Source: an uncultured Candidatus Saccharibacteria bacterium (GTDB lineage Bacteria > Patescibacteriota > WWE3 > UBA101185 > 2-01-FULL-41-18). From it: a stretch of DNA of 64,000 nucleotides. Shown in pieces: positions 93 to 63,444 of this stretch (positions are counted from its first letter, which is position 1; every line of letters starts with the position of its first letter). The notes under the pieces are model-generated. The model saw only the letters and a program-made list of their open reading frames with translations. It made no database searches and was not told the DNA's origin. The position numbers and the translations under genes are program-made. The stretch covers positions 7,048 to 71,047 of the forward strand of contig CAZWQF010000001.1 in assembly GCA_964636285.1 (NCBI GenBank), read 5' to 3'.

Positions 93-102
93 CACAAGAG
101 TC

Positions 103-926: not shown

Positions 927-964
927 TGAATCTTAAGCAGATTCACGCTAAGGGTAGTGCGTGA

Positions 965-1702: not shown

Positions 1703-1757
1703 AGCTTTTTTATCCCCAAAGGGAAAGGTATAACTACCTACCTTGTGCAGAGTGCTC

Positions 1758-46164: not shown

Positions 46165-47292
46165 ATGAAATTTACCTGTCTCCAGGAAAATCTTGTCCGT
46201 GGGCTTTCTATTGTCAGCAAAGCAGTTGCTACAAGAGGTTCGCTTCCTGTTTTGTCTAACGTCCTTATTTCCGCGGTCGACGGTAGAGTTAAGCTTTCTT
46301 CAACAAATCTAGAAACCTCAATAACAACATGGATAGGAGCCTCTGTAGAAGAGGAGGGTGAAATAACAGTCCCATCAAAAGTTTTTCACGAATACGTTTC
46401 AAACATCCCCCCTTCGACAATAACAATTGAAGGAAGCGGAACAAATTTAAAGATCTCAAGTGACAAAGTTTCTTCAAAATTTGTAGGAATTGATGCATCT
46501 GAGTTTCCAAATATTGCAGCAGATGCAGATGAGGTTCACTTAACAATTGATCCAAAAGTTTTTGGCGACGCTGTCCTTGAAACTGCATTTGCTTCGGCAG
46601 CAGATGAGACAAGGCCGGTATTAACAGGCGTATTGTTAATTGGAAACGATGAGGGGTTGTACCTAGTTGGTGTTGATGGGTTTAGGCTTGCAGAAAGATC
46701 TGTAGCTTCAGAGTCCGGAAAAATTAAAAAAGAGTTTTCCGCAATTATTCCTGCAAAGATTCTCTTGGAGGTTGCTAGGCTTACGGCTTCGTTGAAAGAA
46801 CCACTAGAGGTGTCAGTTAACAAAGACAACACTCTTGTAGTGTTTAAGTCCGGCGACGTGGTTATTTCATCAAGGGTTATTGATGGAGATTTCCCTGCAT
46901 ACAAAGGACTTATTCCACATGTTGATACAAGAAGCGTTAAAGTTAAAATGGCCTCAAAGGATTTGGCAAGCGCCCTTAAACTTGCGAATGTATTTGCAAA
47001 AGACTCCGTAACTGTTGTGAGATTTAAGATAAGTAGTGATGACTCCGCAGTTTATATCCTTTCATCAAATTCGGAAGTAGGGGAAAACAGCGCAAAAATT
47101 GATGCTGAAGTTTCAGGTGGGGATTTGGAAATTGCATTTAATTCAAAGTACATTCTTGACGTTCTAAGTAACGTAAAATCTGACGAATTTATTTTTGAGT
47201 GTTCAGATAAAATTGGTCCTGGAGTGCCAGGGGTTTTAAGACCTTCAACTAGAGATAATCACCTTTACCTTATAATGCCCATGCAGTATTAA
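46165..47292 (+). CDS. dnaN: DNA polymerase III beta sliding clamp
   Basis: 375 aa, MKF..LQENL start and three-domain clamp architecture. Confidence 0.85.
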   Translation: MKFTCLQENLVRGLSIVSKAVATRGSLPVLSNVLISAVDGRVKLSSTNLETSITTWIGASVEEEGEITVPSKVFHEYVSNIPPSTITIEGSGTNLKISSDKVSSKFVGIDASEFPNIAADADEVHLTIDPKVFGDAVLETAFASAADETRPVLTGVLLIGNDEGLYLVGVDGFRLAERSVASESGKIKKEFSAIIPAKILLEVARLTASLKEPLEVSVNKDNTLVVFKSGDVVISSRVIDGDFPAYKGLIPHVDTRSVKVKMASKDLASALKLANVFAKDSVTVVRFKISSDDSAVYILSSNSEVGENSAKIDAEVSGGDLEIAFNSKYILDVLSNVKSDEFIFECSDKIGPGVPGVLRPSTRDNHLYLIMPMQY

Positions 47293-49304: not shown

Positions 49305-49305
49305 A

Positions 49306-50007
49306 TTATTCCTCAATAATTGCGGGTTCCACAATTGGAACTCCATAATCTTCAATTCCTGTTCTAATTCTCTGGTCATGAAGTGAGATTGGGTTGTACA
49401 CGTCAAAGAATAGCTCTACAAGCTCCTGTGTGGTCAGCTGTTTAGCTTTTATATTTAATCTAGCAAAGTCTCTGACTATTGAATCCCTCTTTGGGTACAG
49501 CTCAGTTTCTGCTGTCTTGATCGAACTGGGTACATCCACTTTAACTCTCTTTACTTTATTTCCCGAAAGAGTTTTTAAAAAGTCCAATGGCCCTCCATTA
49601 GGTGCAGCCATGATCATACCTGTTCCTGAAGGAATTGCTACGTAAAAGCTTTTGTCTAAAACTTCGTTCTTTTTAATAAGCTCCTGAACAAATTTTCTGT
49701 AAGCCTCTGCTTGAACTCTAAGAAGGGGATCCCTGATTTTATTTTCGATTGCTTGAACTTTATCTATATAGCTTGAAATATCAAGTTTCTTGCTCCTCAC
49801 TACAATTTGGATTGGATAAGTAAGCGAATTTAGTAACGAAGAGTACGCAGCAATAATTGCATCTTGTTCTACTTCGGATAAAAGGTCAAAGTTTACAGCG
49901 TTTGTTTTAAGTACAAGAACACAAGCCCCAGTTTTAAGAACAACTAGGTCTCTTGAAACTGTCTCAATCTCTAAATGATCTTGTGTGCTTTGTATAACTG
50001 CTGACAT
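49306..50007 (-). CDS. VirB4 N-terminal-domain-like protein (probably split from the downstream ATPase)
   Basis: 233-aa soluble ORF ending 2 nt before the probable VirB4 start; resembles CagE/TrbE N-domain. Confidence 0.45.
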   Translation of the reverse strand: MSAVIQSTQDHLEIETVSRDLVVLKTGACVLVLKTNAVNFDLLSEVEQDAIIAAYSSLLNSLTYPIQIVVRSKKLDISSYIDKVQAIENKIRDPLLRVQAEAYRKFVQELIKKNEVLDKSFYVAIPSGTGMIMAAPNGGPLDFLKTLSGNKVKRVKVDVPSSIKTAETELYPKRDSIVRDFARLNIKAKQLTTQELVELFFDVYNPISLHDQRIRTGIEDYGVPIVEPAIIEE

Positions 50008-50013: not shown

Positions 50014-52170
50014 TTAAAGTTTACCAATAAACTCTACTGGTGGTAATACCTCTCCTTTCACTTCAACACTTGCGGGCTCAAAAGTTTGTGGTATGTCCTC
50101 ATTCGGTTTTGTAACCTCAATTTTATACCTGCCGTTAGTAACCGGCGTTGTGATGCAGAATTGCCCAAGTTTGTTTGTTTTGAGTGCTCTTACCACATCC
50201 TCTTTTGAGTCTTTAATTATAACAACTGCACCTTCAACTAGCTTACCTTCTTTATCTTTCACTATTCCGTTGATCAGATTTGGTTGATTTGCAAACGAAG
50301 GGGCTTGAGCAAAATTTGCCGGTTTAGCCTCTATTGGCGCCTCTTTTATTGGTGGCGGGACTACCGGTTTTAAAATTACGGGCTGTGGTGTTTGCTCAGG
50401 TGCCTTTACTGATGCTGGGTCTGGTGTTGTTTCTGGTAGGTTTAATGGTTCAATCACAATCCCCTGATTTTTTGGTGGTTCTGGTGCTTTTTGTATTGGC
50501 TGTGGGATATCATACGTTTGCTTTTGTGTTTGCACCGTCTGATAAAGCCTCTGTTGAAGCTCGTTTATTTTTTGTTGCAGAGCAGAGATTTGAGTGTCTG
50601 CAACTTTCTTTTCATTCTGAAGTCTTAATAGCTCCATCTCAAATTTTTGCTTGTCGGCGGCACTGGAGTCCTGCATTTTTCTTTTGAGCTCTTCGATTTC
50701 TTTTGATAAATTATCGTTTGAGCTTTTTAGCTGGTTTGCTGCAGATTGGACTTCTTTTTTTGTTGCTTCTGTTTGAGTTGGTGTTTGAGATTTTAGATCT
50801 AGTTTGGCTCCAAGCTTAGCTTGCTGTACTCCTGCCTCTTTTTTAATTCGGTCAATAAGACCCATTAAATCTTTAGTCTTTTTTTCAAGATCTGAGTCAA
50901 ACTTTTGCTCTTCATTGACAGTGTTTAGGACTCTTTCGCCTCGAATGGGGAGAACCAGTTCACCTTGCTCTGCTGTCAGGTGTGTGAACCGCCTACCCGT
51001 TAGTCTGTCCGGAGTGATTGAGTTGTATGGTGTGTAAGTAATCTTTGGTTTACGGACGTTATCATTCACTCTGAATGCATTTGAGACTGCCGTTGGGGTT
51101 AGCTGAGTTTGGGATTTGAATTCTGGTTTTGGAGATTCTTTTGGCAAAATCTGAGGTTTTAGTTCAGGCTTTGAGGTTGCGGTCTGCTGAATTTGAGCCT
51201 GCACCTGAGGCTGTGTCCTAATTGGTTGCTGAGTCTGTGCTTGGGCAGGGGTGGGTTGCGCACTTACAGGGCTTGGAGTAGGCACGCTACTTTGCGTTTG
51301 TGTTGTTGCGGTTGGCTTTGGCATTGCGGGCTCCTTGCTAGCCATAGGTGGTTGCGATTGGGTTTGCTCTGCCAACTTTGGTTTAGGCTCCTGTAATTGA
51401 GGTTTTATTTCAGGTTTAACTTGAGGCGCTGGAGTTTGTGCTGGTGTTGTCTCCATTGCGTTTTCCTCTATGCCTTGAGGCTTGTTTTCTTGAAAGTTTT
51501 TGTTTATGGAGGGCTCTGTTCGAATTGGAGGTAGGCTTGTATCTTGAGCTAATGGGGTTGATGCAACGGGGGTATCAATAACAGATGTTTGCTGAGACTG
51601 GAACGAATGGTAAGGCTTAAAAAGCGTTGCCTGTTTTGTTGAAGCTTGAGCCTGGGTTGTAGTTGTACCCTCAAACGAGTCCCTGACTTTTTGTATGTAT
51701 TCGGCTTCTCTTTGTTCCATTGGGTCAAGAATGTGGTCGGTGACTTCTCTTTCAAGGTATTGTTCCAGTTTTCTTCGGCTTGCTGTTGGGGCAACAGCAA
51801 GCATTTCGTTTTTCAATTGATTTGCATTTTGGTATAGAAAATAGCTTGGAGGCTCAACCTCTTTTTTCCAGATTCGCTGAGTGGGGGAGTAAATGGCCAA
51901 AAAAAAGTTAACTACCCAAATGTCCATGCTTCTGTCTTGAATTGGGAGAAAGGCTACGGCAAGAGCAAGGCCAGCTACGCAGAGGGCTAGAGGGATGGCG
52001 ATGAACTTTGGAAGGCCTGAGGCAAAGGTTCCAAAAGCAAAAACAGCGCCTAGGACAAGATAGGCAAACTGTCTCATGGTCAGCTCTCCAATGACTTTAA
52101 ATTCCACCTGCATTATATTCTGTGGAACTGCATGTTGTTTCACACCTAGTGATACTTCAGAAATGGGCAT
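50014..52170 (-). CDS. T4SS-associated membrane protein: VirB3-like 2-TM N-terminus + P/Q/T-rich linker + coiled coil + C-terminal carboxypeptidase-regulatory-like beta-sandwich
   Basis: N-terminal pair of TM helices immediately upstream of VirB4 (VirB3 position); long low-complexity; C-terminal GIVKDKEGKLVEGAVVIIKD...GRYKIEVTKP CarbopepD_reg-like motif. Confidence 0.5.
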   Translation of the reverse strand: MPISEVSLGVKQHAVPQNIMQVEFKVIGELTMRQFAYLVLGAVFAFGTFASGLPKFIAIPLALCVAGLALAVAFLPIQDRSMDIWVVNFFLAIYSPTQRIWKKEVEPPSYFLYQNANQLKNEMLAVAPTASRRKLEQYLEREVTDHILDPMEQREAEYIQKVRDSFEGTTTTQAQASTKQATLFKPYHSFQSQQTSVIDTPVASTPLAQDTSLPPIRTEPSINKNFQENKPQGIEENAMETTPAQTPAPQVKPEIKPQLQEPKPKLAEQTQSQPPMASKEPAMPKPTATTQTQSSVPTPSPVSAQPTPAQAQTQQPIRTQPQVQAQIQQTATSKPELKPQILPKESPKPEFKSQTQLTPTAVSNAFRVNDNVRKPKITYTPYNSITPDRLTGRRFTHLTAEQGELVLPIRGERVLNTVNEEQKFDSDLEKKTKDLMGLIDRIKKEAGVQQAKLGAKLDLKSQTPTQTEATKKEVQSAANQLKSSNDNLSKEIEELKRKMQDSSAADKQKFEMELLRLQNEKKVADTQISALQQKINELQQRLYQTVQTQKQTYDIPQPIQKAPEPPKNQGIVIEPLNLPETTPDPASVKAPEQTPQPVILKPVVPPPIKEAPIEAKPANFAQAPSFANQPNLINGIVKDKEGKLVEGAVVIIKDSKEDVVRALKTNKLGQFCITTPVTNGRYKIEVTKPNEDIPQTFEPASVEVKGEVLPPVEFIGKL

Positions 52171-53006: not shown

Positions 53007-54329
53007 TTATTTTTTCTTTGGCCCTTTTAATGCCTGATCAATCATTCCAGGTGCTTTTATTGCAAGACCGCCCATAATTAAAGTTATTGAAGGGCCTACA
53101 AAAGCTCTCATAGGTACGCTAACTAAGAGATTTGCTCCAGGGACCGTTGTACTTCCTGACCAGTCTGTACCTAAAGTTATTGCAGCTCCAAGCATTAAGC
53201 AGAAGAAAATTGACGCAAGGGCTAGTGATGATGAAAGTTGAGTAATAAACCAATCCTTTATTCTGCTTTCTTGGCCTGGTAGGGCTCCAATAGCAAAAAT
53301 GAGTGGTGCAAAAATGGTATACAGAACTATCTTGCACCAGTTAAATATAAAAACAAATAAAGAGATAATCAAAACTGCTAGGTAGACTATAACTGCAATA
53401 AGTAGAATAACTAGCCCCCCTAAGTCCGCCCAGATGCTGTTGTTTTCGCCAGCTTCCATTAAAGATCTAGTAAGAAATTCTGCATAACAGGTTGCATAGC
53501 TAGTGATATTTTGAATTGTGCTGGCACCAATCAAAGTTGGACATTGGGTTGATATGAACCCACCGCCACTAGTGAATGTATCCGGATTGATAGCATAAAG
53601 ACCTGCTTTTGTAGCAGGAATAATAAGCTGGGCAAACATGCTTCCTAATGGATATGAGAATGCAATTAGTACAGCACTAATTGCAATTCTTGGAACAGCC
53701 ATTTGTGCTGTCACTACAGTTTGAGCATCTATTTTTTGTCTTAAAACTATCATGATAGCTATGGCCATTACAAAAACCGCTAACATTCCATATGCAATGT
53801 TTCTAATCCCTCTCCATGCCCCCAGCACTGCTGCATACTGATTCAATGACCCTTCCTGAGCATATGCACTTCTAAAAACAATGGATTCCTCAGACGCGTT
53901 GTTAATAAAATACGCTAGATTTATGGGAGGAGGCGCCTCTGAAAAACCGTCAAAAGCTTGAGCAGTAAAGGCCATGAGGCTTCCATTTCTTCTGAGGTTC
54001 AGATTTGCCGATTCGGATCCTAAATGGAGCATTCTCAAAGAGCAAGAATCCCTATTCAAGAAGATTACATCAATTAACGCGTCGCTAGTGCAACCTATCA
54101 GGCCATATAATGGGGCATCAATACCCATTGCTGTGATCATTGACATTGTAGTGGACCTGATTGAAGTTTCCTCCTCAAAGAATTCTGAGATTCCCCTAAA
54201 TACATTTGTTGAAATTGAAAATCCATTATCTGCATTGGCAACTCTATAAGTTCCAACTACAAAAGTTATTACCGCAAGAAAAATAATCAAATATTTAATG
54301 TTTTTAAGTGTTTTTGCTTTACCTAACAT
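53007..54329 (-). CDS. VirB6/TrbL-like polytopic membrane protein
   Basis: 440 aa, signal/TM N-terminus, >=6 TM helices, position in T4SS-like cluster. Confidence 0.5.
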   Translation of the reverse strand: MLGKAKTLKNIKYLIIFLAVITFVVGTYRVANADNGFSISTNVFRGISEFFEEETSIRSTTMSMITAMGIDAPLYGLIGCTSDALIDVIFLNRDSCSLRMLHLGSESANLNLRRNGSLMAFTAQAFDGFSEAPPPINLAYFINNASEESIVFRSAYAQEGSLNQYAAVLGAWRGIRNIAYGMLAVFVMAIAIMIVLRQKIDAQTVVTAQMAVPRIAISAVLIAFSYPLGSMFAQLIIPATKAGLYAINPDTFTSGGGFISTQCPTLIGASTIQNITSYATCYAEFLTRSLMEAGENNSIWADLGGLVILLIAVIVYLAVLIISLFVFIFNWCKIVLYTIFAPLIFAIGALPGQESRIKDWFITQLSSSLALASIFFCLMLGAAITLGTDWSGSTTVPGANLLVSVPMRAFVGPSITLIMGGLAIKAPGMIDQALKGPKKK

Positions 54330-54412: not shown

Positions 54413-57400
54413 ATGGCACCAATATTTAAAGCGGGGTATTACCCTGGAGATAAGCCAATAAGAAAAAACCCCATCCAGCCTGTTGAAAACCTAGACCCTT
54501 TTATGGAAGCAGCTATTAATGCTATTTCATTCGATCGGGATGCATTAGGGCTTCCTAATCGAATGGCAACTCTTCTTGAAAAGGACTATAGAAATGGGTT
54601 TGCCATTAGGTATGGTATCAGGGATCAGAATTATGTAGATGACAATATTAACAGAAGCATTAACGCAGGGCTTGCTGGAAGCGACCTTTCAATTGAGGAG
54701 GAATATAATGAGCTTCCAGGCGTTAGAGGGGCAAAGATTAACTTAGATCCAGAAACTATTGCAAAAGTTGGAGCTGGCGGTGTTGTCTCAAATACATTTA
54801 AAAGCATGCTTGATGCAGGATTTGCATTCAAGGACTTTTCGCTCAAGGCAGAGCTATATGGATTATGGGATCCGCTCTTAAACCCAGGAGTCTCATCCGA
54901 TTCTGTTCGGGCTGGTATGAGCCTGTCCTCTAGTGATTACATAAAAAGGTATCAGCCTGGAGTGACAGGTAAAATTTTGACACAACGTGATTTTTCAAAT
55001 GTAGATTCCCTAAATTCATCAATACGAGCGTATGTGCTCTCAAGCGGATCGGCCGTGGAGGAGCAGGCGTCTTTTACACAGGTAAAATATTTTTATTTTC
55101 AGTCTTTTAGGCAGGCATTTGAAAATAGTCCAGAAATTGCAAATATTGATGCCGATATTTTAACTTCAGATGCAAAATCTAGGCAATACGTTACTGATAT
55201 TTCAACTCTTACATCAACACTAGCAACAACGTCCGATCCTGCTACAAGGGCTGTATTATCACAACAGCTTGTACAAGCACAGGCTAATTTGGCAGGAGAG
55301 CAGTCAAAAGCGGCTAATTTACAATCTCTGAAGGCAGAGGCTGATGATTTAAAGCAGCTCTTTAGTGGAGTTAGAACTCCTGAAGACTTAGTCAAAGACG
55401 CAAGGAAACAGAATCCAAAGGCTGGATTTAATATAAAAAAACTAAGGGCTAACGAGAGAAGGTTGATGGATAACTTTTGGAAGGCTTCGGTTCATGGAAA
55501 AAATACCTCCATTACAAGAATGGCTGGAATCATGGGAGATAGGCGGCTTATTGCATGGAGCAGACTTATAGATTATAGAGAACGCGTTTCGGAAACCAGT
55601 GAGGTTATAGATGCAATTGCAAAAGGTGAGTTTTTTCAGCAATTTATTTGGAAAAAGTATGTCCTAAAAAGATTACCTTGGATAACACCAACATACGCAT
55701 TCTCAAAATTTTTTACAAACCCGGGAGACTTCTTTTGGAGAGCCTTTGTTAATGGGAAAATACCGTTGCCATTTACTGAGGCAACACTTCCTTTTTTTAA
55801 AATTCCATTTGTAACAGGGTTGTTTAATAGGTTTGGTGCGCTCGCTGACAGGCTTGTTGGGTGGGTGTCAGATCTTATAGTTAAAAGATTTGCTAAGGTA
55901 ATCAATTTGTTTGGTGGCAATGTTATTAAATCAGCTTTTAGTAAGATAAGTGGTTGGTTATATGGTGTTGGGGCAGGTTCTGGGGTTGGTTTACCCGCGG
56001 TTGTTGTTGCGGCTATAACCCAATATTTAGGAGAAAAAATTTTTGGTTTATTTAAATCCATATTTGATGGCGACTTTTTTGAGTACTTGGAGAAGCTTCA
56101 AGCAGAGGCTGCCCGGTTGGTCAGATTTTTATTTGGAGTAGTGCTACTGCTCATCAGTTCTTGCCTAGTCTTTGTTACAATTGCTACTTCAATCCTATTC
56201 CTTCCTTTTTCAGGAATGATGGTTCAGGACTATGGGTCAGGAGGAGGGGTAGAAGAGACTGACGTTGATTGTCCATTCGTAGATGAAAGCGAGCTTCCAA
56301 GAGATGCTAATGGCGTGAGACTTGATAATGTTAAGCCTCTTGAAGATATGATAAACGCATTAACAAATACATATGCTAATCCTAAGAGATCTCCCATGGG
56401 TGTAGGTACAGCTAACGAAGACAATATAAGGAAATGCTATGGCTACATTATTGCAAGGGCACTGCAGACGGCGAATGATCCTGCTATTGCTTTGGCTATT
56501 TGGATTGAAGAGACGGGTGCAAGCAATTATGAAGTTTATAACTTCCCCATTGATGATTTTGGATGCGGTAGGCCCATAGAATCCAATAACTTTATGGATC
56601 AACTTGAATGTTTCTTAAGATTACAAACTGCATATGCTACAAAACCAAGCCATGCAGAGTGTAGAGCTACAGAACCTTCAAATACCGAGCTTATTGTGCA
56701 TGAGTGGGGGCAGATATTTGCTTGTGGTGATTTAGCGTGTAGAGAGGGTAGGGCATATGATTTTTCTTGCTTGGCTGTGTGCGGTACCAATAAGACAGCC
56801 CCAGAATGTATAGACGGCACGTTGTGGTTTGATAATGTAAACACAATTTATTCGGCTGTATCAATTGGGGACAAAACTTTGGATTTAGATTGTATTTTAA
56901 CGGGCTCTACAATAAGATGGGATGACACTTGTAAACAGGGCTCAAGAATTAATGTTGATATACGAGGGGTGACAGGATTACTTGGACAAAACCTGCCTAA
57001 CTTTTTTAGGCGAATAGGGTATAAGGAAGTAATTTCTGATTATGATGACTACATTATACAGTGCTACGAAACCAGAGTAACTTATAACACAGGTTGTCCT
57101 CTTGCCTCCGGTAATTATCTGCATTGTGGTTTGGATTTAGTTGGAGATACTGTGGATGGAATTTATTCGGTGGAGGGTAAGGATGTTCGATCTCCATATC
57201 GTGGGACTGCCGTAGTGGATACTGTAGGTTATGATGCCGCAGGGTATGGAAATTATGTTGTCCTTGAGATTTCTGGTGATGGGGGAGATGATGACTCCAA
57301 TGAGGACTTCTTATATATTTTAGTTGGGCATTTAATAGATGGTTCTATAGGGGTATCCGTTGGAGAGCAGGTGGCATATAATGATTTTATCGGTCGAGTA

Positions 57401-57565
57401 GGGTCTACAGGTCACTCTACAGGGCCTCATGTGCATTATGAGATCAGATCAGGGGGAAGGTCTGCTGCTTATCAAGTTAATCCCTGTTACGTGGTGGCCT
57501 TCAGTGGGGAGTCCTGTCCTGGGACGACATTTGGCTCAAGTTGCTCGACTGCAATGTTAGAATAA
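54413..57565 (+). CDS. 1050-aa T4SS-associated cell-wall hydrolase: central lysozyme-like region + C-terminal M23 (LytM) metallopeptidase
   Basis: C-terminal HxxxD...HSTGPHVHYEIR M23 motifs; central ...AIALAIWIEETGASNYEV... glycosidase-like block; internal TM segment. Confidence 0.65.
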   Translation: MAPIFKAGYYPGDKPIRKNPIQPVENLDPFMEAAINAISFDRDALGLPNRMATLLEKDYRNGFAIRYGIRDQNYVDDNINRSINAGLAGSDLSIEEEYNELPGVRGAKINLDPETIAKVGAGGVVSNTFKSMLDAGFAFKDFSLKAELYGLWDPLLNPGVSSDSVRAGMSLSSSDYIKRYQPGVTGKILTQRDFSNVDSLNSSIRAYVLSSGSAVEEQASFTQVKYFYFQSFRQAFENSPEIANIDADILTSDAKSRQYVTDISTLTSTLATTSDPATRAVLSQQLVQAQANLAGEQSKAANLQSLKAEADDLKQLFSGVRTPEDLVKDARKQNPKAGFNIKKLRANERRLMDNFWKASVHGKNTSITRMAGIMGDRRLIAWSRLIDYRERVSETSEVIDAIAKGEFFQQFIWKKYVLKRLPWITPTYAFSKFFTNPGDFFWRAFVNGKIPLPFTEATLPFFKIPFVTGLFNRFGALADRLVGWVSDLIVKRFAKVINLFGGNVIKSAFSKISGWLYGVGAGSGVGLPAVVVAAITQYLGEKIFGLFKSIFDGDFFEYLEKLQAEAARLVRFLFGVVLLLISSCLVFVTIATSILFLPFSGMMVQDYGSGGGVEETDVDCPFVDESELPRDANGVRLDNVKPLEDMINALTNTYANPKRSPMGVGTANEDNIRKCYGYIIARALQTANDPAIALAIWIEETGASNYEVYNFPIDDFGCGRPIESNNFMDQLECFLRLQTAYATKPSHAECRATEPSNTELIVHEWGQIFACGDLACREGRAYDFSCLAVCGTNKTAPECIDGTLWFDNVNTIYSAVSIGDKTLDLDCILTGSTIRWDDTCKQGSRINVDIRGVTGLLGQNLPNFFRRIGYKEVISDYDDYIIQCYETRVTYNTGCPLASGNYLHCGLDLVGDTVDGIYSVEGKDVRSPYRGTAVVDTVGYDAAGYGNYVVLEISGDGGDDDSNEDFLYILVGHLIDGSIGVSVGEQVAYNDFIGRVGSTGHSTGPHVHYEIRSGGRSAAYQVNPCYVVAFSGESCPGTTFGSSCSTAMLE

Positions 57566-58508: not shown

Positions 58509-60542
58509 CTATTCTTTAGGGGTTTCAATTGGAAACGACGATAGTCTAGATATACATTCTTTAGCTGCAGTGACCGTTCCAAGACCCTCGACACCATATG
58601 GCGTCGGTACGTCTGAGTTTCGAATGTTCGCTTTTGTAGTTGTAGTACCTATACCCCCTATACTTTGTAATGGAGTTATTGGGCTGGAAAGAGAGTCGCA
58701 AAGTACTCCACTCACAGCTCCAAGCTCCTTAGCTCTTGGAAGTTTAACATTTGCCATAGAATTGAATGCTTTTTGTGTACTACATCCTGGCGCTTGCGGA
58801 TCGCTTTGGCAGTTAATAATATCAATAAATTGAGAAAATGATGCAGTAAAACCTCCTTCAAGACATCTTCCGTCTGAGTCTTTTCCTCCTGTGCACTCAC
58901 ATTCCTGTCCAAAAAGATGCACATTATAAACATTACCTTTTGGCTTTTGTTTTGTTTGTACCTCACTGTCTGGCGTAGTGACAGTTGAAGCAATTTTGGT
59001 CATATTTGTGATTGTTGATACAGGTGAAAAGGAGCCTCCTCTCAGATTAACACTAGTAATATGTCTATACTCATCAATTCCCGAACCTGGGGAGCACCCA
59101 TATCCTGAGCAGCTTCCGTTGGGATCCACACCTTCTCCTGCTATACTTGGGGTTAGTTCAGCTCTGTCGGGATCAATATCTTTAAGTCTATAGTACGGAA
59201 AAAATTCTGGTTCAAATGAGGTTTCATTAAACTCAAAGCTAAGTTCTTGTTGTGCAATATACATTGGAGGTCTAAAGTTTCTAGCAGATACTTTAGCTCC
59301 ACTATTGTCATAACAAATGTCAGGATTCTCAGAATATAGTTGTAGTACTTGCTTTTTTAGTTCTTCTGGATTTGAAGTTTTGATTAATCCTCCTCCGCAA
59401 GCTCCCTGATTCATCCCACGGAATCTAGCGTTGATGTCTCTTATATCGTCACATGAAGGAGCAAGACCATCTTTTGTGAAAGCAGATGGGTCGCATCCAA
59501 GAGCTGTGCTTGTACCTTCAACAAAAGCAGCTCTGTCGGTTGTTAAATCATCAGGGGTGACTGTGGCACCAGATACGTATGCTACAAGCGCTTGAGCGCA
59601 CATAGCTGGGTTTCTTAAACAAGAAAAGCCTGCATTAAGTATTGGGATTGCATTTCTCCAGAGGTAATCCACTGGGGTCTTATCAAGCTGGTTTATCTGA
59701 TTTTCACATGTATTTTCATAATCGGTTTTATCTACCAGTTGTCTCATACATACATCGTTTTCTTCACAGAAGCACTGTTCGTTTGTACACCTTGTAGCCC
59801 CACTTATATATATCGGAGGGATAGTGACGTCCTTTGTTATTACTCCAGTTTCATCCTGCCACACAATTCCTTTTAATACTTTAATTTCCTTACCACAAAA
59901 AACCCCTATAAACAGGGGTTCTTCAGGTAAATCTGAAATCTTGTACTCACCGCGAGGGCTTTTATTTCCCGTGGATAATGTAGAGTTGCTTTCGGTATAT
60001 GTGTATCTTCTGGTAGCCTTGTATTTCCCAGACTTATTGGCAAGATAGGGATCTTCTATCCAGGCAATCGTAGCACCTATGAGCGGTTTGATTTTTCGCT
60101 TAGCAAGAGGTATCGAGGATTCTTCCTGGGTTGCTATTTCTCCCTCATCAATTGCGTATATTTCTCCTAGTACAGAATGTTCTCCTCTTTTTGAAGGTCT
60201 CCTTTGACATGTTGATTTGTGCTTGGCCAAATCACACGGTGCCCCCTCTTCATCACAATCTGGATGGTTGTTGTCCTCATTATCACAAGTTGATGGGTCG
60301 TCTTGGATAGTCTGACATCTACCAATGTCCCCTCCATTTTCAGCTACGCATCCTCTATGACATGCACCGTTTGCTCTGTTTTCGCAAACAGGTGCGGTGC
60401 TAGAACAATTTTGAGCATACACATTATCCTGACTGTTACATGCAAAAAACAAGTTCATCAAAATAAATATTGAGAGTGTTGTTAATCTGTGCATGAATTT
60501 TTTCATACTGTGTTTAAAATTATTGAGTGAATGGGTCTCCAT
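58509..60542 (-). CDS. large secreted Cys-rich protein (677 aa), putative adhesin/ectodomain
   Basis: Signal peptide, >40 Cys in CxxC/CxC spacing, no TM elsewhere. Confidence 0.5.
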   Translation of the reverse strand: METHSLNNFKHSMKKFMHRLTTLSIFILMNLFFACNSQDNVYAQNCSSTAPVCENRANGACHRGCVAENGGDIGRCQTIQDDPSTCDNEDNNHPDCDEEGAPCDLAKHKSTCQRRPSKRGEHSVLGEIYAIDEGEIATQEESSIPLAKRKIKPLIGATIAWIEDPYLANKSGKYKATRRYTYTESNSTLSTGNKSPRGEYKISDLPEEPLFIGVFCGKEIKVLKGIVWQDETGVITKDVTIPPIYISGATRCTNEQCFCEENDVCMRQLVDKTDYENTCENQINQLDKTPVDYLWRNAIPILNAGFSCLRNPAMCAQALVAYVSGATVTPDDLTTDRAAFVEGTSTALGCDPSAFTKDGLAPSCDDIRDINARFRGMNQGACGGGLIKTSNPEELKKQVLQLYSENPDICYDNSGAKVSARNFRPPMYIAQQELSFEFNETSFEPEFFPYYRLKDIDPDRAELTPSIAGEGVDPNGSCSGYGCSPGSGIDEYRHITSVNLRGGSFSPVSTITNMTKIASTVTTPDSEVQTKQKPKGNVYNVHLFGQECECTGGKDSDGRCLEGGFTASFSQFIDIINCQSDPQAPGCSTQKAFNSMANVKLPRAKELGAVSGVLCDSLSSPITPLQSIGGIGTTTTKANIRNSDVPTPYGVEGLGTVTAAKECISRLSSFPIETPKE

Positions 60543-60981
60543 GCAAATCTAGAAAATCTGAAATTGATTGCAACGTTTCTTCTAATCCGGCTACGCTAGA
60601 ACCTCCAATAAAAATTCTAATAAGAATATTAATCAAACTGACTGCTCCTAAAACTGCTACAAATCCTATCAATCCCCATGTTAAGCTCTTTTTTGCCGCC
60701 TCGATTGCTTTAGAATCTCCTTCTGACAGCGAGTATTTTATGGATCCATAGAGAGTTATTATTATAAATGCAAATCCTACTGCCCCGAGGAGGTAGTTAA
60801 TGCCCGTAGTAATAGGACATGCTAGCTCACTTAAAGCTGGTGGGTCCGAAACGGTGCAATTGAATTGAGCATAAGCTTTGTCTGGAAAAAGGCAGAGAAA
60901 CCCAAATAATATTAATGTTAAGCTTAAATATTTTTGGCTAAACAAAGAAAAAAAATTTCTAATTTTAAATTGAGCTACCAT
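60520..60981 (-). CDS. VirB2/TrbC-like pilin paralog 1 (signal peptide + two hydrophobic helices)
   Basis: Conserved GSIKYSLSEGDSKAIEAAK loop between two TM helices, shared with four downstream paralogs. Confidence 0.55.
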   Translation of the reverse strand: MVAQFKIRNFFSLFSQKYLSLTLILFGFLCLFPDKAYAQFNCTVSDPPALSELACPITTGINYLLGAVGFAFIIITLYGSIKYSLSEGDSKAIEAAKKSLTWGLIGFVAVLGAVSLINILIRIFIGGSSVAGLEETLQSISDFLDLHGDPFTQ

Positions 60982-61264
60982 AATCAGTACCTCCTAACAT
61001 CCTTACTATAATCGCCCTTAATGAAACTGCAACCAAGGCTATAAATAGTGCAGTTATTGCAGCAGTAAGGTAGGACTTTGCCCCTGCGATTGCTTTAGAA
61101 TCCCCCTCTGACATTACATACTTGATACCAGAAATTATAGATGCAATTAAGGCTGCTGCTAAAGCTATTCCAATTAGCACATTCGTCACGATACCCAGTA
61201 CTCTTGAAACAGAAAAATTATATTCCCCAAAAGGACCCTCGACCTGGTTTAAAATCTCGCTCAC
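60965..61264 (-). CDS. VirB2/TrbC-like pilin paralog 2
   Basis: SGIKYVMSEGDSKAIAGAK motif between two TM helices. Confidence 0.55.
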   Translation of the reverse strand: MSEILNQVEGPFGEYNFSVSRVLGIVTNVLIGIALAAALIASIISGIKYVMSEGDSKAIAGAKSYLTAAITALFIALVAVSLRAIIVRMLGGTDYGSSI

Positions 61265-61292: not shown

Positions 61293-62588
61293 CTAGCTAC
61301 CTAAGAAAGTTGTAACTACCCACTTAAGGAAGCTAATACCTAAAATTGCCATTACAACGCCTGCAGCTGCTGCAGTAAGCTCCTCATGCCCTAATTGTAT
61401 TTTTTGTGGGTCTCCTTCACTCATTAACATGTGATATCCGCCCATTATTGCTTGGTATGCCGCTATTATGACGACTAATGCCCCTACCGCCGTTGCAACG
61501 TAGTTAATTAAACCCGCTGGGTCCATTGCTACCGGAAAGTTGGGAGATGGCGGTGGGTTCTTAATAAGCTCAATTTCCTCCTGCATCCCTTGGCATATTG
61601 CACTGCATGATCCCAGGTTATTGTGAATACAGGCTGTATCAGTGCTTCCTGGAGCACATTCAGAGCAACCACTACCTAGAACGCACTTATATAGTTTAGT
61701 CTCACTAGCTGTAGAAACACATAGCCCATCATCTCCACTCGCATTGATTTGATCGCAATCGCCTCTATTTCCTGCTCCGCTGTCGCATGTTTCATTAGGT
61801 CCGCAATCTACGGGGCTTGAGCAGTTACAGGAGGTTGAAGCTCCAGAAGGGTTTTGACATGTATAGTTACTAGTATTGTTATTTGTAGGCCTGCACAAAA
61901 AGTTTGCACTTGCAGACTGGCAACAGCCTAAATTTCTTAAAGCCCCTGGAGCACTTCTACCGCAAACTTGTCCTGGTGCAATACAGGTTACCTCTGCAAC
62001 GCACCTATTTTGTGTTACATCACATGTGAAGCCGGAGGCACATTGGCTTGATCCAGGGCTGTTACATTCCACACAAGTGCTTATTGTTTCGCCTGGATTT
62101 TTACAGTGTCTGCCTGAGGGATTACTTTGACAATCCTGATCTCCTCTACAGATAACACATTCTGCGGTGTCCACATTACAGATATTTCTAGTTTGATTTT
62201 GACATTGGGAATCATTAGAGCATCCTATAGCCTCACAATTACTGCTACTGGTCCCTTTTTGCTTACAATAGGGGGTACTCCCTGGACAATCATTATTATC
62301 TCTGCAAGCTACACAAATACCGCCTTGACCATTACAAACTGGAAAGCCTTGATTTCCCATACTTGCGCTTGTATCTGCAACATAGCAAATTTTATTTTTT
62401 ACATTACTGTTACAAGAGGAAGGTTGAGCGACACACGTATAAGATCCGCTTGCGGTTACTAATCCCATTCCACACTCACCGTTCACAGCATAAGCTGGTT
62501 TTTGAAGAGTGCTAATAATCCCAATAACTATCAATAAGACTAAAGTAACATTGTTTAGTTTTGAGATTACACTAAGTACCTTCTGCAT
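61293..62588 (-). CDS. Cys-rich ectodomain fused to C-terminal VirB2/TrbC-like pilin module (431 aa)
   Basis: Signal peptide, ~330 aa with ~50 Cys, then ...AYQAIMGGYHMLMSEGDPQKIQLGHEELTAAAAGVVMAILGISF pilin-like hairpin. Confidence 0.55.
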   Translation of the reverse strand: MQKVLSVISKLNNVTLVLLIVIGIISTLQKPAYAVNGECGMGLVTASGSYTCVAQPSSCNSNVKNKICYVADTSASMGNQGFPVCNGQGGICVACRDNNDCPGSTPYCKQKGTSSSNCEAIGCSNDSQCQNQTRNICNVDTAECVICRGDQDCQSNPSGRHCKNPGETISTCVECNSPGSSQCASGFTCDVTQNRCVAEVTCIAPGQVCGRSAPGALRNLGCCQSASANFLCRPTNNNTSNYTCQNPSGASTSCNCSSPVDCGPNETCDSGAGNRGDCDQINASGDDGLCVSTASETKLYKCVLGSGCSECAPGSTDTACIHNNLGSCSAICQGMQEEIELIKNPPPSPNFPVAMDPAGLINYVATAVGALVVIIAAYQAIMGGYHMLMSEGDPQKIQLGHEELTAAAAGVVMAILGISFLKWVVTTFLGS

Positions 62589-62590: not shown

Positions 62591-62908
62591 TTATATACCC
62601 ACGGTTGTCCTTGCACTATCAATGTTTCCTCCTAAGGCACTAACAATTATAGATCGGATTGACATTGCAGCTATGACTATGACAAAACCTATAATCGCAT
62701 TGGTGAGCCACTCTCTTGCAACCATCGTGTTTGCTTTATCCCCTTGGCTCATGATGTATTTAATACCACCAAGAATTAAATAAATAATTGTAAGTGCAAT
62801 TCCTGAGCCGAGTGCAATATTGTACACTACTCCAAAAATTGAACTTAAACTTGTAAATCTATTGTTGAGAGGGTCAACAATATTTGAATCTACTTGTGCA
62901 TATACCAT
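62591..62908 (-). CDS. VirB2/TrbC-like pilin paralog 4
   Basis: LGGIKYIMSQGDKANTMVAREWLTNAIIGF; no in-frame upstream start (in-frame TAA 8 codons upstream). Confidence 0.55.
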   Translation of the reverse strand: MVYAQVDSNIVDPLNNRFTSLSSIFGVVYNIALGSGIALTIIYLILGGIKYIMSQGDKANTMVAREWLTNAIIGFVIVIAAMSIRSIIVSALGGNIDSARTTVGI

Positions 62909-63020
62909 ACTTTTATTATAACCACCTTTTTATTTCTGTAAACTCGAATTACACTCGTATCTATTAAAACCAAAACAGGGCGGTTGTCCGCCCTGTACAT
63001 TGGAAAGAAATCAGTTTTTA

Positions 63021-63344
63021 TTAAGCGGGTGTTACTCCACTCACTGCAGTGTTGGATGCGCCTAGAAGATTTCCTACGATTGATCTAATCACGAATGCTC
63101 CAAGGACTACAATAAAACCAATGATTGCGTTTGTGAGCCATTCTCTTGCTACTTGAGTATTAGCTTTATCCCCTTGGCTCATGATGTATTTAATACCACC
63201 AAGAATTAAATAAATAATTGTAAGTGCAATACCAACACCCAGCACTACATTCATTATCATACCAAATAGATTTGGTAGGTTGGTTAATGTTGAACCTTCT
63301 AATGGATTTGTTGGGGTTACATCTACATTTTGTGCGAATACCAT
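63021..63344 (-). CDS. VirB2/TrbC-like pilin paralog 5 (recent tandem duplicate of 62591-62908)
   Basis: 64-bp identical DNA block (62737-62800 = 63167-63230) and near-identical protein core. Confidence 0.55.
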   Translation of the reverse strand: MVFAQNVDVTPTNPLEGSTLTNLPNLFGMIMNVVLGVGIALTIIYLILGGIKYIMSQGDKANTQVAREWLTNAIIGFIVVLGAFVIRSIVGNLLGASNTAVSGVTPA

Positions 63345-63444
63345 GTTACACCTCCTTCAATAGTTTCAATAACTATAAATAAGTTTATACTATTGTTCTT
63401 GAGTGTCAAGAACAGCAGAGTATAGCACATTGTACATTGCATTG

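What the first reader, a model, noticed from the sequence alone, without database searches (positions are those of the whole stretch)
61293..62588. Pilin-like module fused to a ~330-aa Cys-rich extracellular domain
The C-terminal 70 aa carry the same two-helix pilin-like hairpin (…MSEGDxxKI…) as the four small paralogs. About 330 residues with ~50 cysteines precede it behind a signal peptide. A pilin subunit carrying a large disulfide-rich head is unusual for VirB2/TrbC-type pilins. It could be a minor or tip pilin that presents an adhesin.
Basis: seen in the sequence. Interest (0 to 1): 0.7.

Follow-up and report, generated by a model that had tools for sequence, protein, structure and literature searches.

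The report
T4SS pilin carrying a disulfide-rich head
A candidate-phyla-radiation (WWE3-like) bacterium encodes, inside the pilin operon of its type IV secretion system, a real and conserved protein with a ~310-residue, 40-cysteine extracellular domain attached to an ordinary VirB2-like pilin hairpin; this would be a built-in way to put a binding domain on (or at the tip of) the secretion pilus that these epibiotic bacteria need to live on their hosts.

Summary
ORF 61293-62588(-) is an intact 431-aa gene with a signal peptide (1-34), a Cys-rich ectodomain (35-345; 40 Cys, not ~50), a Pro-rich linker and a two-helix pilin module (357-428). The module is homologous to the four small paralogs (hhalign 98.3%, E 1e-14) and to Pfam PF18895 T4SS_pilin, though below its gathering cutoff.

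It is not an artefact. An independent assembly carries the identical gene. Diverged orthologs (46%, 34% and 37% identity) keep the architecture at the same position in a syntenic Patescibacteria T4SS locus.

All 40 Cys align between the two closest members, while non-Cys ectodomain residues are 34% identical. 13 of 14 related ectodomain-bearing pilins have even Cys counts, which points to a fully disulfide-bonded scaffold.

p107 (80% conserved, with its own promoter and a conserved terminator) looks like the major pilin. The fused gene lies in the downstream operon.

Best reading: a modular minor or tip pilin that displays an adhesin-like head. No pilus has been shown for this system, the ectodomain fold could not be predicted (pLDDT ~50), and no ligand is known.

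Modular pilins are known for type IV pili and chaperone-usher pili. I found none described for VirB2-type pilins, so I rate this a new variant of a known kind.

The parts
61293..62588 (-). Whole gene: 431-aa modular T4SS pilin (signal peptide + Cys-rich ectodomain + linker + pilin hairpin); stop codon at 61293-61295
   Evidence: ORF list; identical protein in an independent assembly; full-length ortholog P0002 at 46% identity, E=1.8e-83
62487..62588 (-). Signal peptide, residues 1-34 (basic n-region, 13-residue hydrophobic core, A-Y-A cleavage motif before VNGEC)
   Evidence: Sequence and hydropathy; helix 2-28 in the model; same layout in orthologs. No SignalP was available, so the cleavage site is read by eye
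61554..62486 (-). Extracytoplasmic Cys-rich domain, residues 35-345; 40 Cys (12.9%), rich in S/G/N, few aromatics
   Evidence: 40/40 Cys aligned with P0002 while non-Cys identity is 33.6%; even Cys count in 13 of 14 related ectodomains; no Pfam or NCBIfam family; no reliable fold
61989..62336 (-). Residues 85-200: three C-[VI]-x-C-x5-7-C-x5-8-C units (CVACRDNNDC..., CVICRGDQDC..., CVECNSPGSSQC...)
   Evidence: the loose pattern is not significant against shuffles, p~0.075; similar units in non-pilin proteins P0034 and P0046 at marginal E-values of 6e-4 and 9e-4
61560..61691 (-). Residues 300-343: conserved membrane-proximal module (beta-hairpin + helix 325-343), the only confidently modelled part of the ectodomain
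   Evidence: pLDDT ~90; C302 and C308 invariant in alignment A2
61521..61559 (-). Residues 344-356: Pro-rich linker (NPPPSPNFPVAMD-P) ending in the D-P motif that also precedes helix 1 in the small pilins
   Evidence: Alignments A1, A2 and A5; P352 and P357 invariant in A2
61425..61520 (-). Pilin helix 1, residues 357-388
   Evidence: Hydropathy; AF2 helix with pLDDT 86-94; PF18895 match 359-416
61410..61424 (-). Loop residues 389-393 (MSEGD); S-x-G-D is invariant across the fused protein and all four paralogs
   Evidence: invariant S47, G49, D50 of A1; S and G invariant in 35 sequences
61305..61409 (-). Pilin helix 2, residues 394-428 (contains the invariant L-T)
63021..63344 (-). p107: small pilin without signal peptide; candidate major pilin
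   Evidence: PF18895 31.7 bits; 79.8% identical to its L006 ortholog against 27-46% for every other gene of the locus; strong RBS
63382..63409 (-). Promoter-like site TTGACA-16-TAAACT upstream of p107
   Evidence: same hexamers at the same position in L006. A consensus match only
62975..62996 (-). Intrinsic-terminator-like hairpin (9-bp stem, 7 GC) plus T-run, immediately after p107
   Evidence: stem arms identical and loop different in L006
62915..62942 (-). Promoter-like site TTTACA-16-TATAAT (11/12), 6 nt before the p105 ATG; presumed start of the operon p105-fused-p99-p153-p677
   Evidence: conserved in L006
62591..62908 (-). p105: small pilin; its stop codon lies 2 nt before the ATG of the fused gene
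   Evidence: PF18895 30.6 bits; sequence
60965..61264 (-). p99: small pilin paralog
   Evidence: PF18895 18.7 bits, below cutoff; aligns in A1 and A5
60520..60981 (-). p153: pilin with signal peptide and a short N-terminal two-Cys loop
   Evidence: PF18895 31.6 bits; the two mature Cys are also present in the L006 and L007 orthologs
58509..60542 (-). p677: secreted Cys-rich (31 Cys) protein with no known family; last gene of the operon; syntenic orthologs of 632 and 696 aa
47289..57565 (.). T4SS machinery: VirB4-like ATPase 47289-49406(-), TrsD-like 49306-50007(-), PrgI/VirB3-like with CarboxypepD_reg 50014-52170(-), polytopic VirB6-like candidate 53007-54329(-), 1050-aa M23 peptidase 54413-57565(+)
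   Evidence: Pfam and NCBIfam; same genes in the same order in L003 and L007

Best explanation
The gene encodes a modular VirB2-like T4SS pilin.

Shown: a Sec-type signal peptide is followed by a ~310-residue domain whose 40 cysteines form a strictly conserved scaffold. A Pro-rich linker joins it to a two-helix hairpin homologous to the Patescibacteria T4SS_pilin family. The gene is a conserved positional member of a five-pilin cluster next to a monoderm-type T4SS (VirB4, TrsD, PrgI, VirB6-like, M23 hydrolase) close to dnaN.

Inferred topology: the signal peptide exports the N-terminus. Helix 1 spans out-to-in, the S-E-G-D loop is cytoplasmic, and helix 2 returns. Both termini and the whole Cys-rich domain are therefore outside the membrane, where an MdbA/VKOR-type system (enriched in CPR) would oxidise it to about 20 disulfides.

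Inferred mechanism: in solved VirB2/TraA pili the hairpin loop lines the lumen and the termini lie on the outer surface. If the T4SS assembles p107 (the candidate major pilin) into a pilus or short conduit in the same way, the fused subunit can co-assemble through its conserved hairpin and hold its head on the outside. Its bulk and its position in the downstream, probably less expressed, operon argue for low stoichiometry. It would either be scattered along the fibre or form the first-assembled, distal layer. There it would act as a built-in adhesin or cap and substitute for the missing VirB5 tip protein and PrgB-type adhesins. Variable loops on a fixed disulfide scaffold would set host-surface specificity.
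For: Real gene: intact ORF and an identical gene in an independent assembly.

Orthologs P0002 (46%), P0003 (WWE3 MAG) and P0004 have the same architecture. They occupy the same slot in syntenic loci: pilin, pilin, FUSED, pilin, pilin, ~650-aa Cys-rich protein, M23, VirB6-like, PrgI, VirB4.

Pilin homology: PF18895 hit at 359-416; 32 of 35 relatives hit PF18895 and 5 hit TrbC/VirB2; hhalign 98.3% against the small pilins. The loop motif S-x-G-D and the L-T are invariant between the fused and small pilins. A plain membrane anchor would not need to keep them.

The hairpin is modelled with pLDDT ~90.

Disulfide scaffold: 40/40 Cys aligned with P0002, against 33.6% identity at non-Cys positions and 60% in the pilin module. 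Cys counts are even in 13 of 14 ectodomain-bearing relatives (binomial p~0.0009).

Major/minor logic: p107 is 80% conserved against 27-46% for the rest of the locus. It has its own promoter-like site and a terminator hairpin, and both are conserved in L006. The fused gene starts 2 nt after the p105 stop.

Other ectodomain-bearing pilins also sit in small-pilin arrays. Tandem two- and three-module pilins exist, which fits both termini lying on the same, outer face.

Literature: pilin arrays in the Saccharibacteria T4SS are essential for epibiotic growth (PMC10633639). No VirB5 or PrgB-type adhesins were found in Patescibacteria T4SS (PMC12102498, PMC12857230). MdbA-like oxidoreductase and VKOR are enriched in CPR (bioRxiv 10.1101/335083).
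Against: No pilus built from these pilins has been observed in any Patescibacterium; reviews speak only of 'potential'.

The PF18895 score of the fused protein is below the curated cutoff (19.3 against 26.6 bits), and there is no direct hit to TrbC/VirB2.

The ectodomain fold is unknown (pLDDT <50 over most of it in both runs). No binding domain, lectin or known adhesin family is detectable, so 'adhesin' is argued only from location and evolutionary pattern.

Overall divergence of the fused gene (34-37%) is typical for the locus, not exceptional.

Stoichiometry and tip location are steric and operon-order arguments only. Promoter and terminator calls are consensus matches, and their total number in the region does not exceed that in shuffles.

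No disulfide-forming enzyme is encoded in this 64-kb window.
Confidence: 0.5

Rival explanations
1. Membrane-anchored surface protein or channel accessory. The pilin-like hairpin never leaves the cytoplasmic membrane. It acts as a two-helix anchor or as a docking module for the VirB6/PrgI platform, and holds the Cys-rich domain at the cell surface next to the T4SS as a static adhesin, spacer through the wall or S-layer, or receptor. No fibre incorporation occurs.
For: Gram-positive-type (MPF-FATA) T4SSs, to which this system is related, generally make no pilus and rely on surface adhesins (PMC12102498, PMC12857230). No Patescibacteria T4SS pilus has been seen. NCBIfam's nearest models are 'pilin-like conjugal transfer proteins' of Mycoplasma ICEs, which are wall-less monoderms not known to form conjugative pili (the last point is from my own knowledge). 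A 310-aa head on every subunit is hard to fit into a VirB2-type lattice.
Against: The fused module keeps the same invariant loop and helix residues as the small pilins. That suggests the same assembly or recognition constraints rather than a generic anchor. It is encoded inside the pilin operon at a conserved position. Five different pilin genes per locus are hard to explain without some polymer or oligomer.
Confidence: 0.3
2. Pro-protein. The Cys-rich region is cleaved off at the Pro-rich linker. This would either release a normal small pilin (an extreme version of the long leaders of TraA and VirB2) or release the Cys-rich domain as a secreted factor.
For: VirB2, TraA and TrbC propilins are processed at the N-terminus, and some at the C-terminus (established knowledge; see PMC12037004 and PMC13434634 for cyclic pilins). 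The linker N-P-P-P-S-P...D-P sits exactly where the small pilins begin. Relatives show a continuum of N-terminal extension lengths from 18 to 359 aa.
Against: A true signal peptide already precedes the domain. A 40-Cys scaffold conserved 40/40 between orthologs at 34% background identity indicates a folded, selected domain, which would be costly for a discarded leader in a reduced genome. No protease or recognisable cleavage motif is apparent. Pro-rich segments are typical inter-domain tethers.
Confidence: 0.1
3. The cysteines bind metal (Zn or Fe-S, metallothionein-like) or serve extracellular redox chemistry rather than forming structural disulfides.
For: There are four C-x2-C motifs, one CC and one C-x-C. 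Many CPR organisms live in anoxic groundwater, where extracellular disulfides are less favoured (general knowledge).
Against: Even Cys parity in 13 of 14 family members. The spacing resembles small disulfide-rich modules, and predicted short beta-hairpins are present. The location is extracytoplasmic, behind a signal peptide. CPR genomes are enriched in MdbA/VKOR (10.1101/335083). No His or Asp co-ligand pattern is evident: only 2 His in the ectodomain.
Confidence: 0.05
4. Artefact: a frameshift, chimeric assembly or gene-calling error joins a secreted Cys-rich gene to a pilin gene.
For: GenBank annotates the WWE3 ortholog as only a 116-aa protein. This shows that gene callers disagree here.
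Against: The ORF is continuous. The identical sequence occurs in an independent assembly. The full-length ORF is intact in the WWE3 contig itself. Four or more diverged orthologs and about 10 more distant relatives share the architecture.
Confidence: 0.01

Closest known systems
Patescibacteria VirB2-like pilins (Pfam PF18895 T4SS_pilin) in T4SS pilin arrays (PMC12102498; essential array in Ca. Southlakia epibionticum, PMC10633639)
   Same: Homologous two-helix hairpin with the conserved G-G-[YI]-x-x-x-x-S-x-G-D loop and L-T. Encoded in a 5-gene pilin array beside VirB4, TrsD, PrgI and dnaN, exactly as described for Microgenomatia-type genomes.
   Different: Described members are small: all 120 listed hits are <=162 aa. 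This protein carries an extra ~310-aa disulfide-rich ectodomain. It scores below the Pfam cutoff and just above the i-E<0.001 criterion of the published survey (whole-protein E=0.0012). It would therefore probably be counted there as a 'non-pilin gene' interrupting an array; that last step is my inference.
TrbC/VirB2/TraA conjugative pilins of diderm T4SS (PF04956; F, T, RP4, R388 and H pili)
   Same: Signal peptide followed by two hydrophobic helices. Expected N-out/C-out topology, with the loop facing the cytoplasm and later the pilus lumen. Five relatives give weak PF04956 hits.
   Different: The query itself has no significant PF04956 match. Known VirB2-type pilins are ~70-120-aa propilins with no extra folded domain (my own knowledge; no counter-example appeared). 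Lipid binding, cyclisation and pilus formation are untested here. The host is a monoderm.
VirB5/TraC/TrwJ pilus-tip protein
   Same: Proposed role only: a minor, distal, adhesive component that could nucleate or cap the fibre. VirB5 is absent from Patescibacteria T4SS (PMC12857230).
   Different: No sequence or fold similarity. VirB5 is a soluble helical protein that docks on VirB6, not a pilin-module fusion.
Modular (bimodular) type IV pilins, e.g. Streptococcus sanguinis PilB (vWA module) and PilC (lectin module) (PMC8179133, PMC9934059)
   Same: Same design principle: a pilin module for incorporation into the fibre, fused to a bulky functional domain, used as a minor pilin for adhesion.
   Different: Unrelated filament class. 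T4P pilins have a class III signal peptide, an N-terminal alpha-1 helix and a C-terminal extra module. Here the pilin module is a VirB2-like hairpin at the C-terminus and the extra domain is N-terminal.
Two-domain tip adhesins of chaperone-usher pili (FimH, PapG)
   Same: N-terminal receptor-binding domain plus C-terminal pilin domain; a single or few copies at the fibre tip; encoded downstream of the major subunit, which is separated by a terminator or attenuator (textbook knowledge).
   Different: Ig-like pilin fold with donor-strand exchange; unrelated assembly machinery; found in diderms.
Variable VirB2/VirB5 paralog arrays of Bartonella Trw and Anaplasma
   Same: Multiple diverged pilin paralogs in one T4SS locus, thought to broaden or vary host-surface recognition (PMC12857230, PMC12102498).
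   Different: Those paralogs are all small. Variation there comes from paralog number, not from appended domains.

Membership tests
Pfam PF18895 T4SS_pilin (Patescibacteria VirB2-like pilin) | HMM match at or above the curated gathering score (26.6 bits) | tested here: not met
   19.3 bits, E=0.0012, residues 359-416. Paralogs p105, p107 and p153 score 30.6-31.7 bits and pass; p99 scores 18.7 and does not.
Pfam PF18895 T4SS_pilin (Patescibacteria VirB2-like pilin) | Homology to bona fide members by more sensitive profile methods | tested here: met
   hhalign of fused modules against small pilins: 98.3%, E=1.3e-14, 76 columns. 32 of 35 aligned relatives hit PF18895. phmmer returns about 40 small pilins aligned to 345-430.
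Pfam PF18895 T4SS_pilin (Patescibacteria VirB2-like pilin) | Two hydrophobic helices joined by a short conserved polar loop (S-x-G-D) | tested here: met
   Hydropathy, alignment, AF2 helices 357-388 and 394-428 at pLDDT ~90.
Pfam PF18895 T4SS_pilin (Patescibacteria VirB2-like pilin) | Encoded in a T4SS cluster or pilin array near virB4 | tested here: met
   syntenic in L003, L006 and L007.
Pfam PF18895 T4SS_pilin (Patescibacteria VirB2-like pilin) | Small single-module protein (about 50-160 aa) | tested here: not met
   431 aa with a 310-aa extra domain. All 120 listed family hits are <=162 aa (biased sample).
TrbC/VirB2 pilin family (PF04956) | Significant HMM match | tested here: not met
   No hit at E<=0.1 for the query. 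Only 5 of 35 relatives hit it, best E=7.6e-4.
TrbC/VirB2 pilin family (PF04956) | Polymerises into an extracellular pilus (with or without stoichiometric phospholipid) | not testable with these tools
   Needs microscopy or biochemistry. The literature reports only 'potential' pili in Patescibacteria (PMC12857230).
TrbC/VirB2 pilin family (PF04956) | Structural match of the hairpin to solved pilins | tested here: inconclusive
   Foldseek against PDB gave only generic helical hairpins, all with E>1. A profile search of PDB sequences found nothing relevant.
VirB5-type pilus tip protein | Sequence or fold similarity to VirB5/TraC | tested here: not met
   No Pfam or NCBIfam hit. The predicted ectodomain is beta/coil and disulfide-rich, not a helical bundle (low confidence).
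Modular type IV pilins (T4P) | Class III signal peptide and N-terminal alpha-1 pilin helix | tested here: not met
   The N-terminus is a Sec-type signal peptide with an A-x-A site. The pilin module is a C-terminal two-helix hairpin. The resemblance is an analogy only.
Known Cys-rich extracellular repeats (EGF, furin-like/VSP, knottin, TNFR-CRD, Myxococcus Cys-rich repeat) | Match to a family profile or a confident fold match | tested here: not met
   Ectodomain alone: no Pfam family at E<=10. NCBIfam found none and PDB sequences none. The AF2 models are too poor for a fold search (mean pLDDT 52).

The most novel reading that the evidence does not exclude
VirB2-type pilins can be modular. In WWE3 and other Patescibacteria, the essential T4SS builds a pilus or short conduit whose distal end (or surface) carries pilin subunits with built-in, disulfide-knotted host-recognition heads. 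These would replace VirB5 and PrgB-type adhesins. The variable loops of the heads (and the continuum of head sizes from 60 to 310 aa across lineages) would encode the host range of these epibionts. The 'non-pilin genes' that interrupt published pilin arrays would in part be such modular pilins, missed by HMM thresholds.
Probability: 0.35. Interest if true: 0.75.

Novelty: new variant of a known kind. Interest (0 to 1): 0.6.

Why it matters
Patescibacteria (CPR) make up a large share of bacterial diversity and live attached to host cells. In the one genetically tractable member, the T4SS and its pilin array are essential for that lifestyle (PMC10633639). What the system does and how it recognises a host are still open questions, and no adhesin or VirB5 has been found (PMC12102498).

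A conserved pilin subunit with a large, fast-varying, disulfide-stabilised head is a concrete candidate for the missing recognition element. It also gives an experimental handle: express the ectodomain, probe host envelopes, raise antibodies for immuno-EM.

For T4SS biology more broadly, it would extend the 'pilin module plus functional module' principle, known from type IV and chaperone-usher pili, to the VirB2 pilin class.

Practically, these proteins fall below Pfam thresholds, and at least one GenBank record truncates the gene. Surveys therefore under-count them.

Tried and rejected
- Word-indexed homolog searches with the full protein and with the family alignment returned essentially only the query. 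Candidates were probably swamped by low-complexity words. The exhaustive HMMER search was needed.
- The last word-indexed search, with the module profile, returned only proteins <=162 aa and not the query's own family. It cannot be used to estimate how often the fusion occurs.
- AlphaFold2 with a 35-sequence alignment was confident only for residues 300-431. AlphaFold2 on the ectodomain alone with 7 sequences gave mean pLDDT 52. No fold assignment was possible, so I did not run further fold searches on it.
- Foldseek against PDB gave only generic helical hairpins, all with E>1.
- PDB sequence searches with the protein and with the module profile found nothing meaningful.
- BLAST self-comparison found no significant internal repeats in the ectodomain. 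The C-x2-C-x4-7-C-x5-9-C pattern occurs 3 times against 0.97 expected (p~0.075). The 'repeat' is visible by eye but not statistically secure.
- Similarity of the ectodomain to the neighbouring Cys-rich p677 is not significant (best E=0.098).
- The genome-collection scan found only one species-representative relative, the WWE3 MAG. The metagenome scan added only duplicates and small-pilin arrays.
- No DsbA, MdbA or VKOR gene is encoded in the window.
- Alternative genetic code or a hidden upstream signal peptide for p105 and p107: rejected. Upstream frames contain several stops of different kinds, and good RBS or promoter signals precede the annotated starts.
- Host gene of the group I intron: no rRNA hit and no tRNA after in-silico intron removal.
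Full report
**1. What is in the sequence**

ORF 61293-62588 (minus strand) is an uninterrupted 431-codon gene. Its product has four parts.

- An N-terminal signal-peptide-like segment, MQKVLSVISKLNNVTLVLLIVIGIISTLQKPAYA|VNGEC.
- A region (residues 35-345) that holds all 40 cysteines (12.9% Cys). It is rich in Ser, Gly and Asn and poor in aromatics.
- A Pro-rich linker, NPPPSPNFPVAMDP.
- Two hydrophobic helices joined by MSEGDPQKI.

The rest of the description is accurate.

The four small neighbours are two-helix proteins that share the S-x-G-D loop and an L-T in helix 2 with the large protein:

| Paralog | Coordinates | Length |
|---|---|---|
| p107 | 63021-63344 | 107 aa |
| p105 | 62591-62908 | 105 aa |
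| p99 | 60965-61264 | 99 aa |
| p153 | 60520-60981 | 153 aa |

p105 and p107 start directly at MV[YF]AQ behind good ribosome-binding or promoter signals. They have no hidden upstream signal peptide.

**2. Is the C-terminal module a pilin module?**

Pfam PF18895 (T4SS_pilin) scores are as follows; the gathering score is 26.6 bits.

| Protein | PF18895 score | Passes cutoff |
|---|---|---|
| p105 | 30.6 bits | yes |
| p107 | 31.7 bits | yes |
| p153 | 31.6 bits | yes |
| p99 | 18.7 bits | no |
| Fused protein (residues 359-416) | 19.3 bits (E=0.0012) | no |

More sensitive tests settle the homology.

- A profile of nine fused-type modules aligns to a profile of twelve small pilins with 98.3% probability and E=1.3e-14 over 76 columns.
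- 32 of 35 aligned relatives hit PF18895, and five also weakly hit TrbC/VirB2 PF04956.
- An exhaustive phmmer search of 1.84 billion representatives with the full protein returns about 40 small pilins, all aligned to residues ~345-430.
- NCBIfam's nearest models are the 'pilin-like conjugal transfer proteins' of Mycoplasma ICEs, all below cutoff.
- AlphaFold2 models the hairpin with pLDDT ~90.
- Foldseek and PDB sequence searches are uninformative for such a simple fold.

**3. Context**

Downstream on the same strand lie p99, p153 and a 677-aa secreted protein with 31 Cys and no family assignment (p677).

Beyond them are a 321-aa protein, a 1050-aa M23 peptidase, a 440-aa polytopic membrane protein with a faint CD3337/EF1877 (VirB6-like) signal, a 718-aa PrgI/VirB3-like protein, a TrsD-like protein and a VirB4-like ATPase. 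These are followed by dnaN, a KH/R3H protein and yidC.

This is the monoderm-type T4SS described for Patescibacteria, located near the replication origin. [quoted passage not shown] In Ca. Southlakia epibionticum the T4SS and its pilin series are essential for epibiotic growth (PMC10633639).

The nearest named relative of the fused protein comes from a candidate division WWE3 MAG. The window is therefore probably from a WWE3-like Patescibacterium. This is inferred from homology and synteny, not from a marker-gene phylogeny.

**4. Not an artefact, and not unique**

- A Logan assembly of run SRR12762304 holds the identical gene with the same neighbours.
- P0002 (424 aa) is 46% identical over the full length (E=1.8e-83).
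- P0003 (348 aa, WWE3 MAG, seen on 16 contigs) and P0004 (358 aa, GCA_964430495.1) share the architecture.
- Gene order is conserved: [pilin, pilin,] fused, pilin, pilin, 632-696-aa Cys-rich protein, 318-aa protein, M23, VirB6-like, PrgI, VirB4.

More distant relatives form a continuum. Each has a signal peptide, a Cys-rich extension of ~60-215 aa and one pilin module: P0005, P0025, P0021, P0047, P0020, P0019, P0007, P0040, P0045 and P0036. Where context is available, they also sit in small-pilin arrays (L013, L016).

The window's protein and P0002 are the largest found. Proteins with two or three tandem pilin modules also exist: P0008, P0010, P0011 and P0035.

GenBank annotates the WWE3 ortholog as a 116-aa hypothetical protein, although the full ORF is intact in that contig.

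**5. The ectodomain**

No Pfam family matches it even at E<=10. NCBIfam and PDB sequences give nothing.

By eye there are three C-[VI]-x-C-x5-7-C-x5-8-C units. Similar units occur in two non-pilin proteins: P0034 (legume-lectin domain plus repeats plus a PEP-CTERM-like tail) and P0046. Those matches are marginal (E ~6-9e-4). The loose pattern is also not significantly enriched over shuffles.

Two AlphaFold runs failed to give a usable fold. Only the membrane-proximal module 300-343 is confident. The EGF/knottin question stays open.

What can be said is evolutionary.

- Against P0002, all 40 Cys align with all 40 Cys. Non-Cys ectodomain positions are 33.6% identical and the pilin module is 60% identical.
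- 28 of the 30 Cys of P0003 and 28 of the 34 Cys of P0004 align to Cys of the window protein.
- 13 of 14 single-module ectodomain-bearing relatives have an even number of mature Cys (p~0.0009 under random parity).

This pattern is the signature of a fully disulfide-bonded scaffold with variable loops. CPR genomes are enriched in an MdbA-like oxidoreductase with VKOR (bioRxiv 10.1101/335083). None is encoded in this window.

**6. Operon logic**

p107 is by far the most conserved gene of the locus: 79.8% identical to its L006 ortholog, against 27-46% for all other genes, including 34-37% for the fused gene.

- p107 has a strong RBS.
- It has a promoter-like site, TTGACA-16-TAAACT.
- Directly after its stop lies the best terminator-like hairpin of the region (9-bp stem, 7 GC, T-run).
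- A second promoter-like site, TTTACA-16-TATAAT, ends 6 nt before the p105 ATG.

Both promoter-like sites recur in L006 with identical hexamers at the same positions. The terminator stem recurs with identical arms and a different loop.

From p105 onward the genes are packed tightly: 2-nt and 28-nt gaps, then overlaps. The most economical reading is a monocistronic, highly expressed major pilin (p107) followed by an operon of minor subunits that includes the fused gene. These are consensus matches supported by conservation, not measured transcripts.

**7. Mechanism (inferred)**

With a cleaved signal peptide, the ectodomain and the N-terminus of helix 1 are outside, the S-E-G-D loop is cytoplasmic and the C-terminus is outside again.

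In solved VirB2/TraA pili the loop lines the lumen and both termini lie on the outer surface (established knowledge; structural papers are listed). An N-terminal head would therefore project outward.

The existence of tandem multi-module pilins fits termini that lie on the same, outer face of neighbouring subunits.

A ~33-kDa head on a ~8-kDa module is unlikely to be tolerated on every subunit. Together with the operon position, this favours a minor subunit, either scattered along the fibre or forming the first-assembled distal layer. There it could cap the fibre and mediate contact. That role is played by VirB5 in diderm systems and by PrgB-type adhesins in Gram-positive ones, and both are missing from Patescibacteria (PMC12102498, PMC12857230).

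I put about 0.5 on this reading. The main rival (0.3) is that the hairpin never leaves the membrane and simply anchors or docks a surface protein at the T4SS, because no pilus has yet been seen in these organisms. Cleavage of the head as a pro-region (0.1), metal binding (0.05) and artefact (0.01) are less likely, for the reasons given in the rival entries.

**8. Comparison and novelty**

- By homology the protein belongs to the PF18895 superfamily, but it fails the curated cutoff and the family's small-size character.
- It is not demonstrably a TrbC/VirB2 family member.
- It is not related to VirB5.
- It only resembles in design the modular type IV pilins (S. sanguinis PilB and PilC; PMC8179133, PMC9934059) and the FimH-type two-domain adhesins.

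A literature search found modular pilins only for type IV pili and none for VirB2-type pilins. The Patescibacteria T4SS survey and a recent T4SS review do not mention ectodomain-bearing pilins.

I therefore rate it a new variant of a known kind, with interest 0.6. The anatomy is solid and the family is recurrent and unannotated, but the function is inferred.

Noticed in passing
window 2734-2957 (-): Complete group I intron (Rfam RF00028, 103.6 bits, full model) with no rRNA anywhere in the window. A weak partial tRNA-like hit overlaps its 3' end (2696-2775, 17.5 bits, E=0.7). In-silico removal of the intron over a grid of boundaries gave no tRNA with ARAGORN. The host gene is unknown.
   Followed up: partly
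window 62915-62942 and p105 start at 62908 (-); L006 3376-3403 and 3410: The -10-like TATAAT ends only 6 nt before the p105 ATG, and the spacing is identical in the orthologous locus. The operon that contains the fused pilin may therefore be transcribed as a leaderless mRNA.
   Followed up: partly
window 63021-63344 (-) and 62975-62996 (-): p107 is 80% identical to its ortholog in L006 while the rest of the T4SS locus is 27-46% identical. It is followed by a terminator hairpin whose stem is conserved and whose loop differs. It is the candidate major pilin under much stronger constraint than the rest of the locus.
   Followed up: yes
window 58509-60542 (-): A 677-aa secreted protein with 31 Cys and no Pfam or NCBIfam match is the last gene of the pilin operon. 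It is conserved in synteny (632 aa in the WWE3 MAG, 696 aa in L006) at only 27-28% identity. It is another uncharacterised surface component of this T4SS.
   Followed up: partly
proteins P0008, P0010, P0011, P0012, P0013, P0018, P0028, P0035, P0041: Single polypeptides carry two or three tandem T4SS_pilin modules joined by short linkers (concatenated pilins). This is another unannotated architectural variant of the family.
   Followed up: partly
L007 284-1339 (MEUZ01000001.1, WWE3 MAG); protein P0048 / OGC50956.1: GenBank annotates the ortholog of the fused pilin as a 116-aa hypothetical protein that starts at an internal GTG. The intact 348/351-aa ORF is present in the contig, so the public annotation hides the ectodomain.
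   Followed up: yes
window 50014-52170 (-): The PrgI/VirB3-like protein is 718 aa. It has an N-terminal PrgI domain, a long central region with weak coiled-coil/SMC-like hits, and a C-terminal CarboxypepD_reg/SdrD-B-like Ig-fold domain. This is far larger than classical VirB3. The same fusion (555 aa) occurs in the WWE3 locus L003.
   Followed up: no
window 49306-50007 and 47289-49406 (-): A TrsD-like ORF (233 aa, matching the N-terminal part of VirB4 models) overlaps by ~100 nt the start of the 705-aa VirB4-like ORF as listed. This is the split TrsD+VirB4 arrangement reported for Patescibacteria. The true VirB4 start is probably downstream of the listed TTG.
   Followed up: no
window 4499-6124 (+): The ThyX (Thy1) ORF is 541 aa with two matched stretches, about twice the usual ThyX length. 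It may be a duplicated or fused ThyX.
   Followed up: no
window 1-2000: GC content is 0.48 against ~0.38 for the rest of the window, with long overlapping ORFs on both strands (965-1531 minus, 1022-1510 plus) and no family assignment attempted. The segment may be foreign or otherwise atypical.
   Followed up: no
protein P0034: A non-pilin protein combines a legume-lectin domain, C-V-E-C-x2-D-x-x-C repeats resembling those of the fused pilin's ectodomain, and a PEP-CTERM-like tail. This hints that the Cys-rich unit serves as a stalk or spacer for surface-displayed binding domains in other phyla. The match is marginal (E=5.9e-4).
   Followed up: partly
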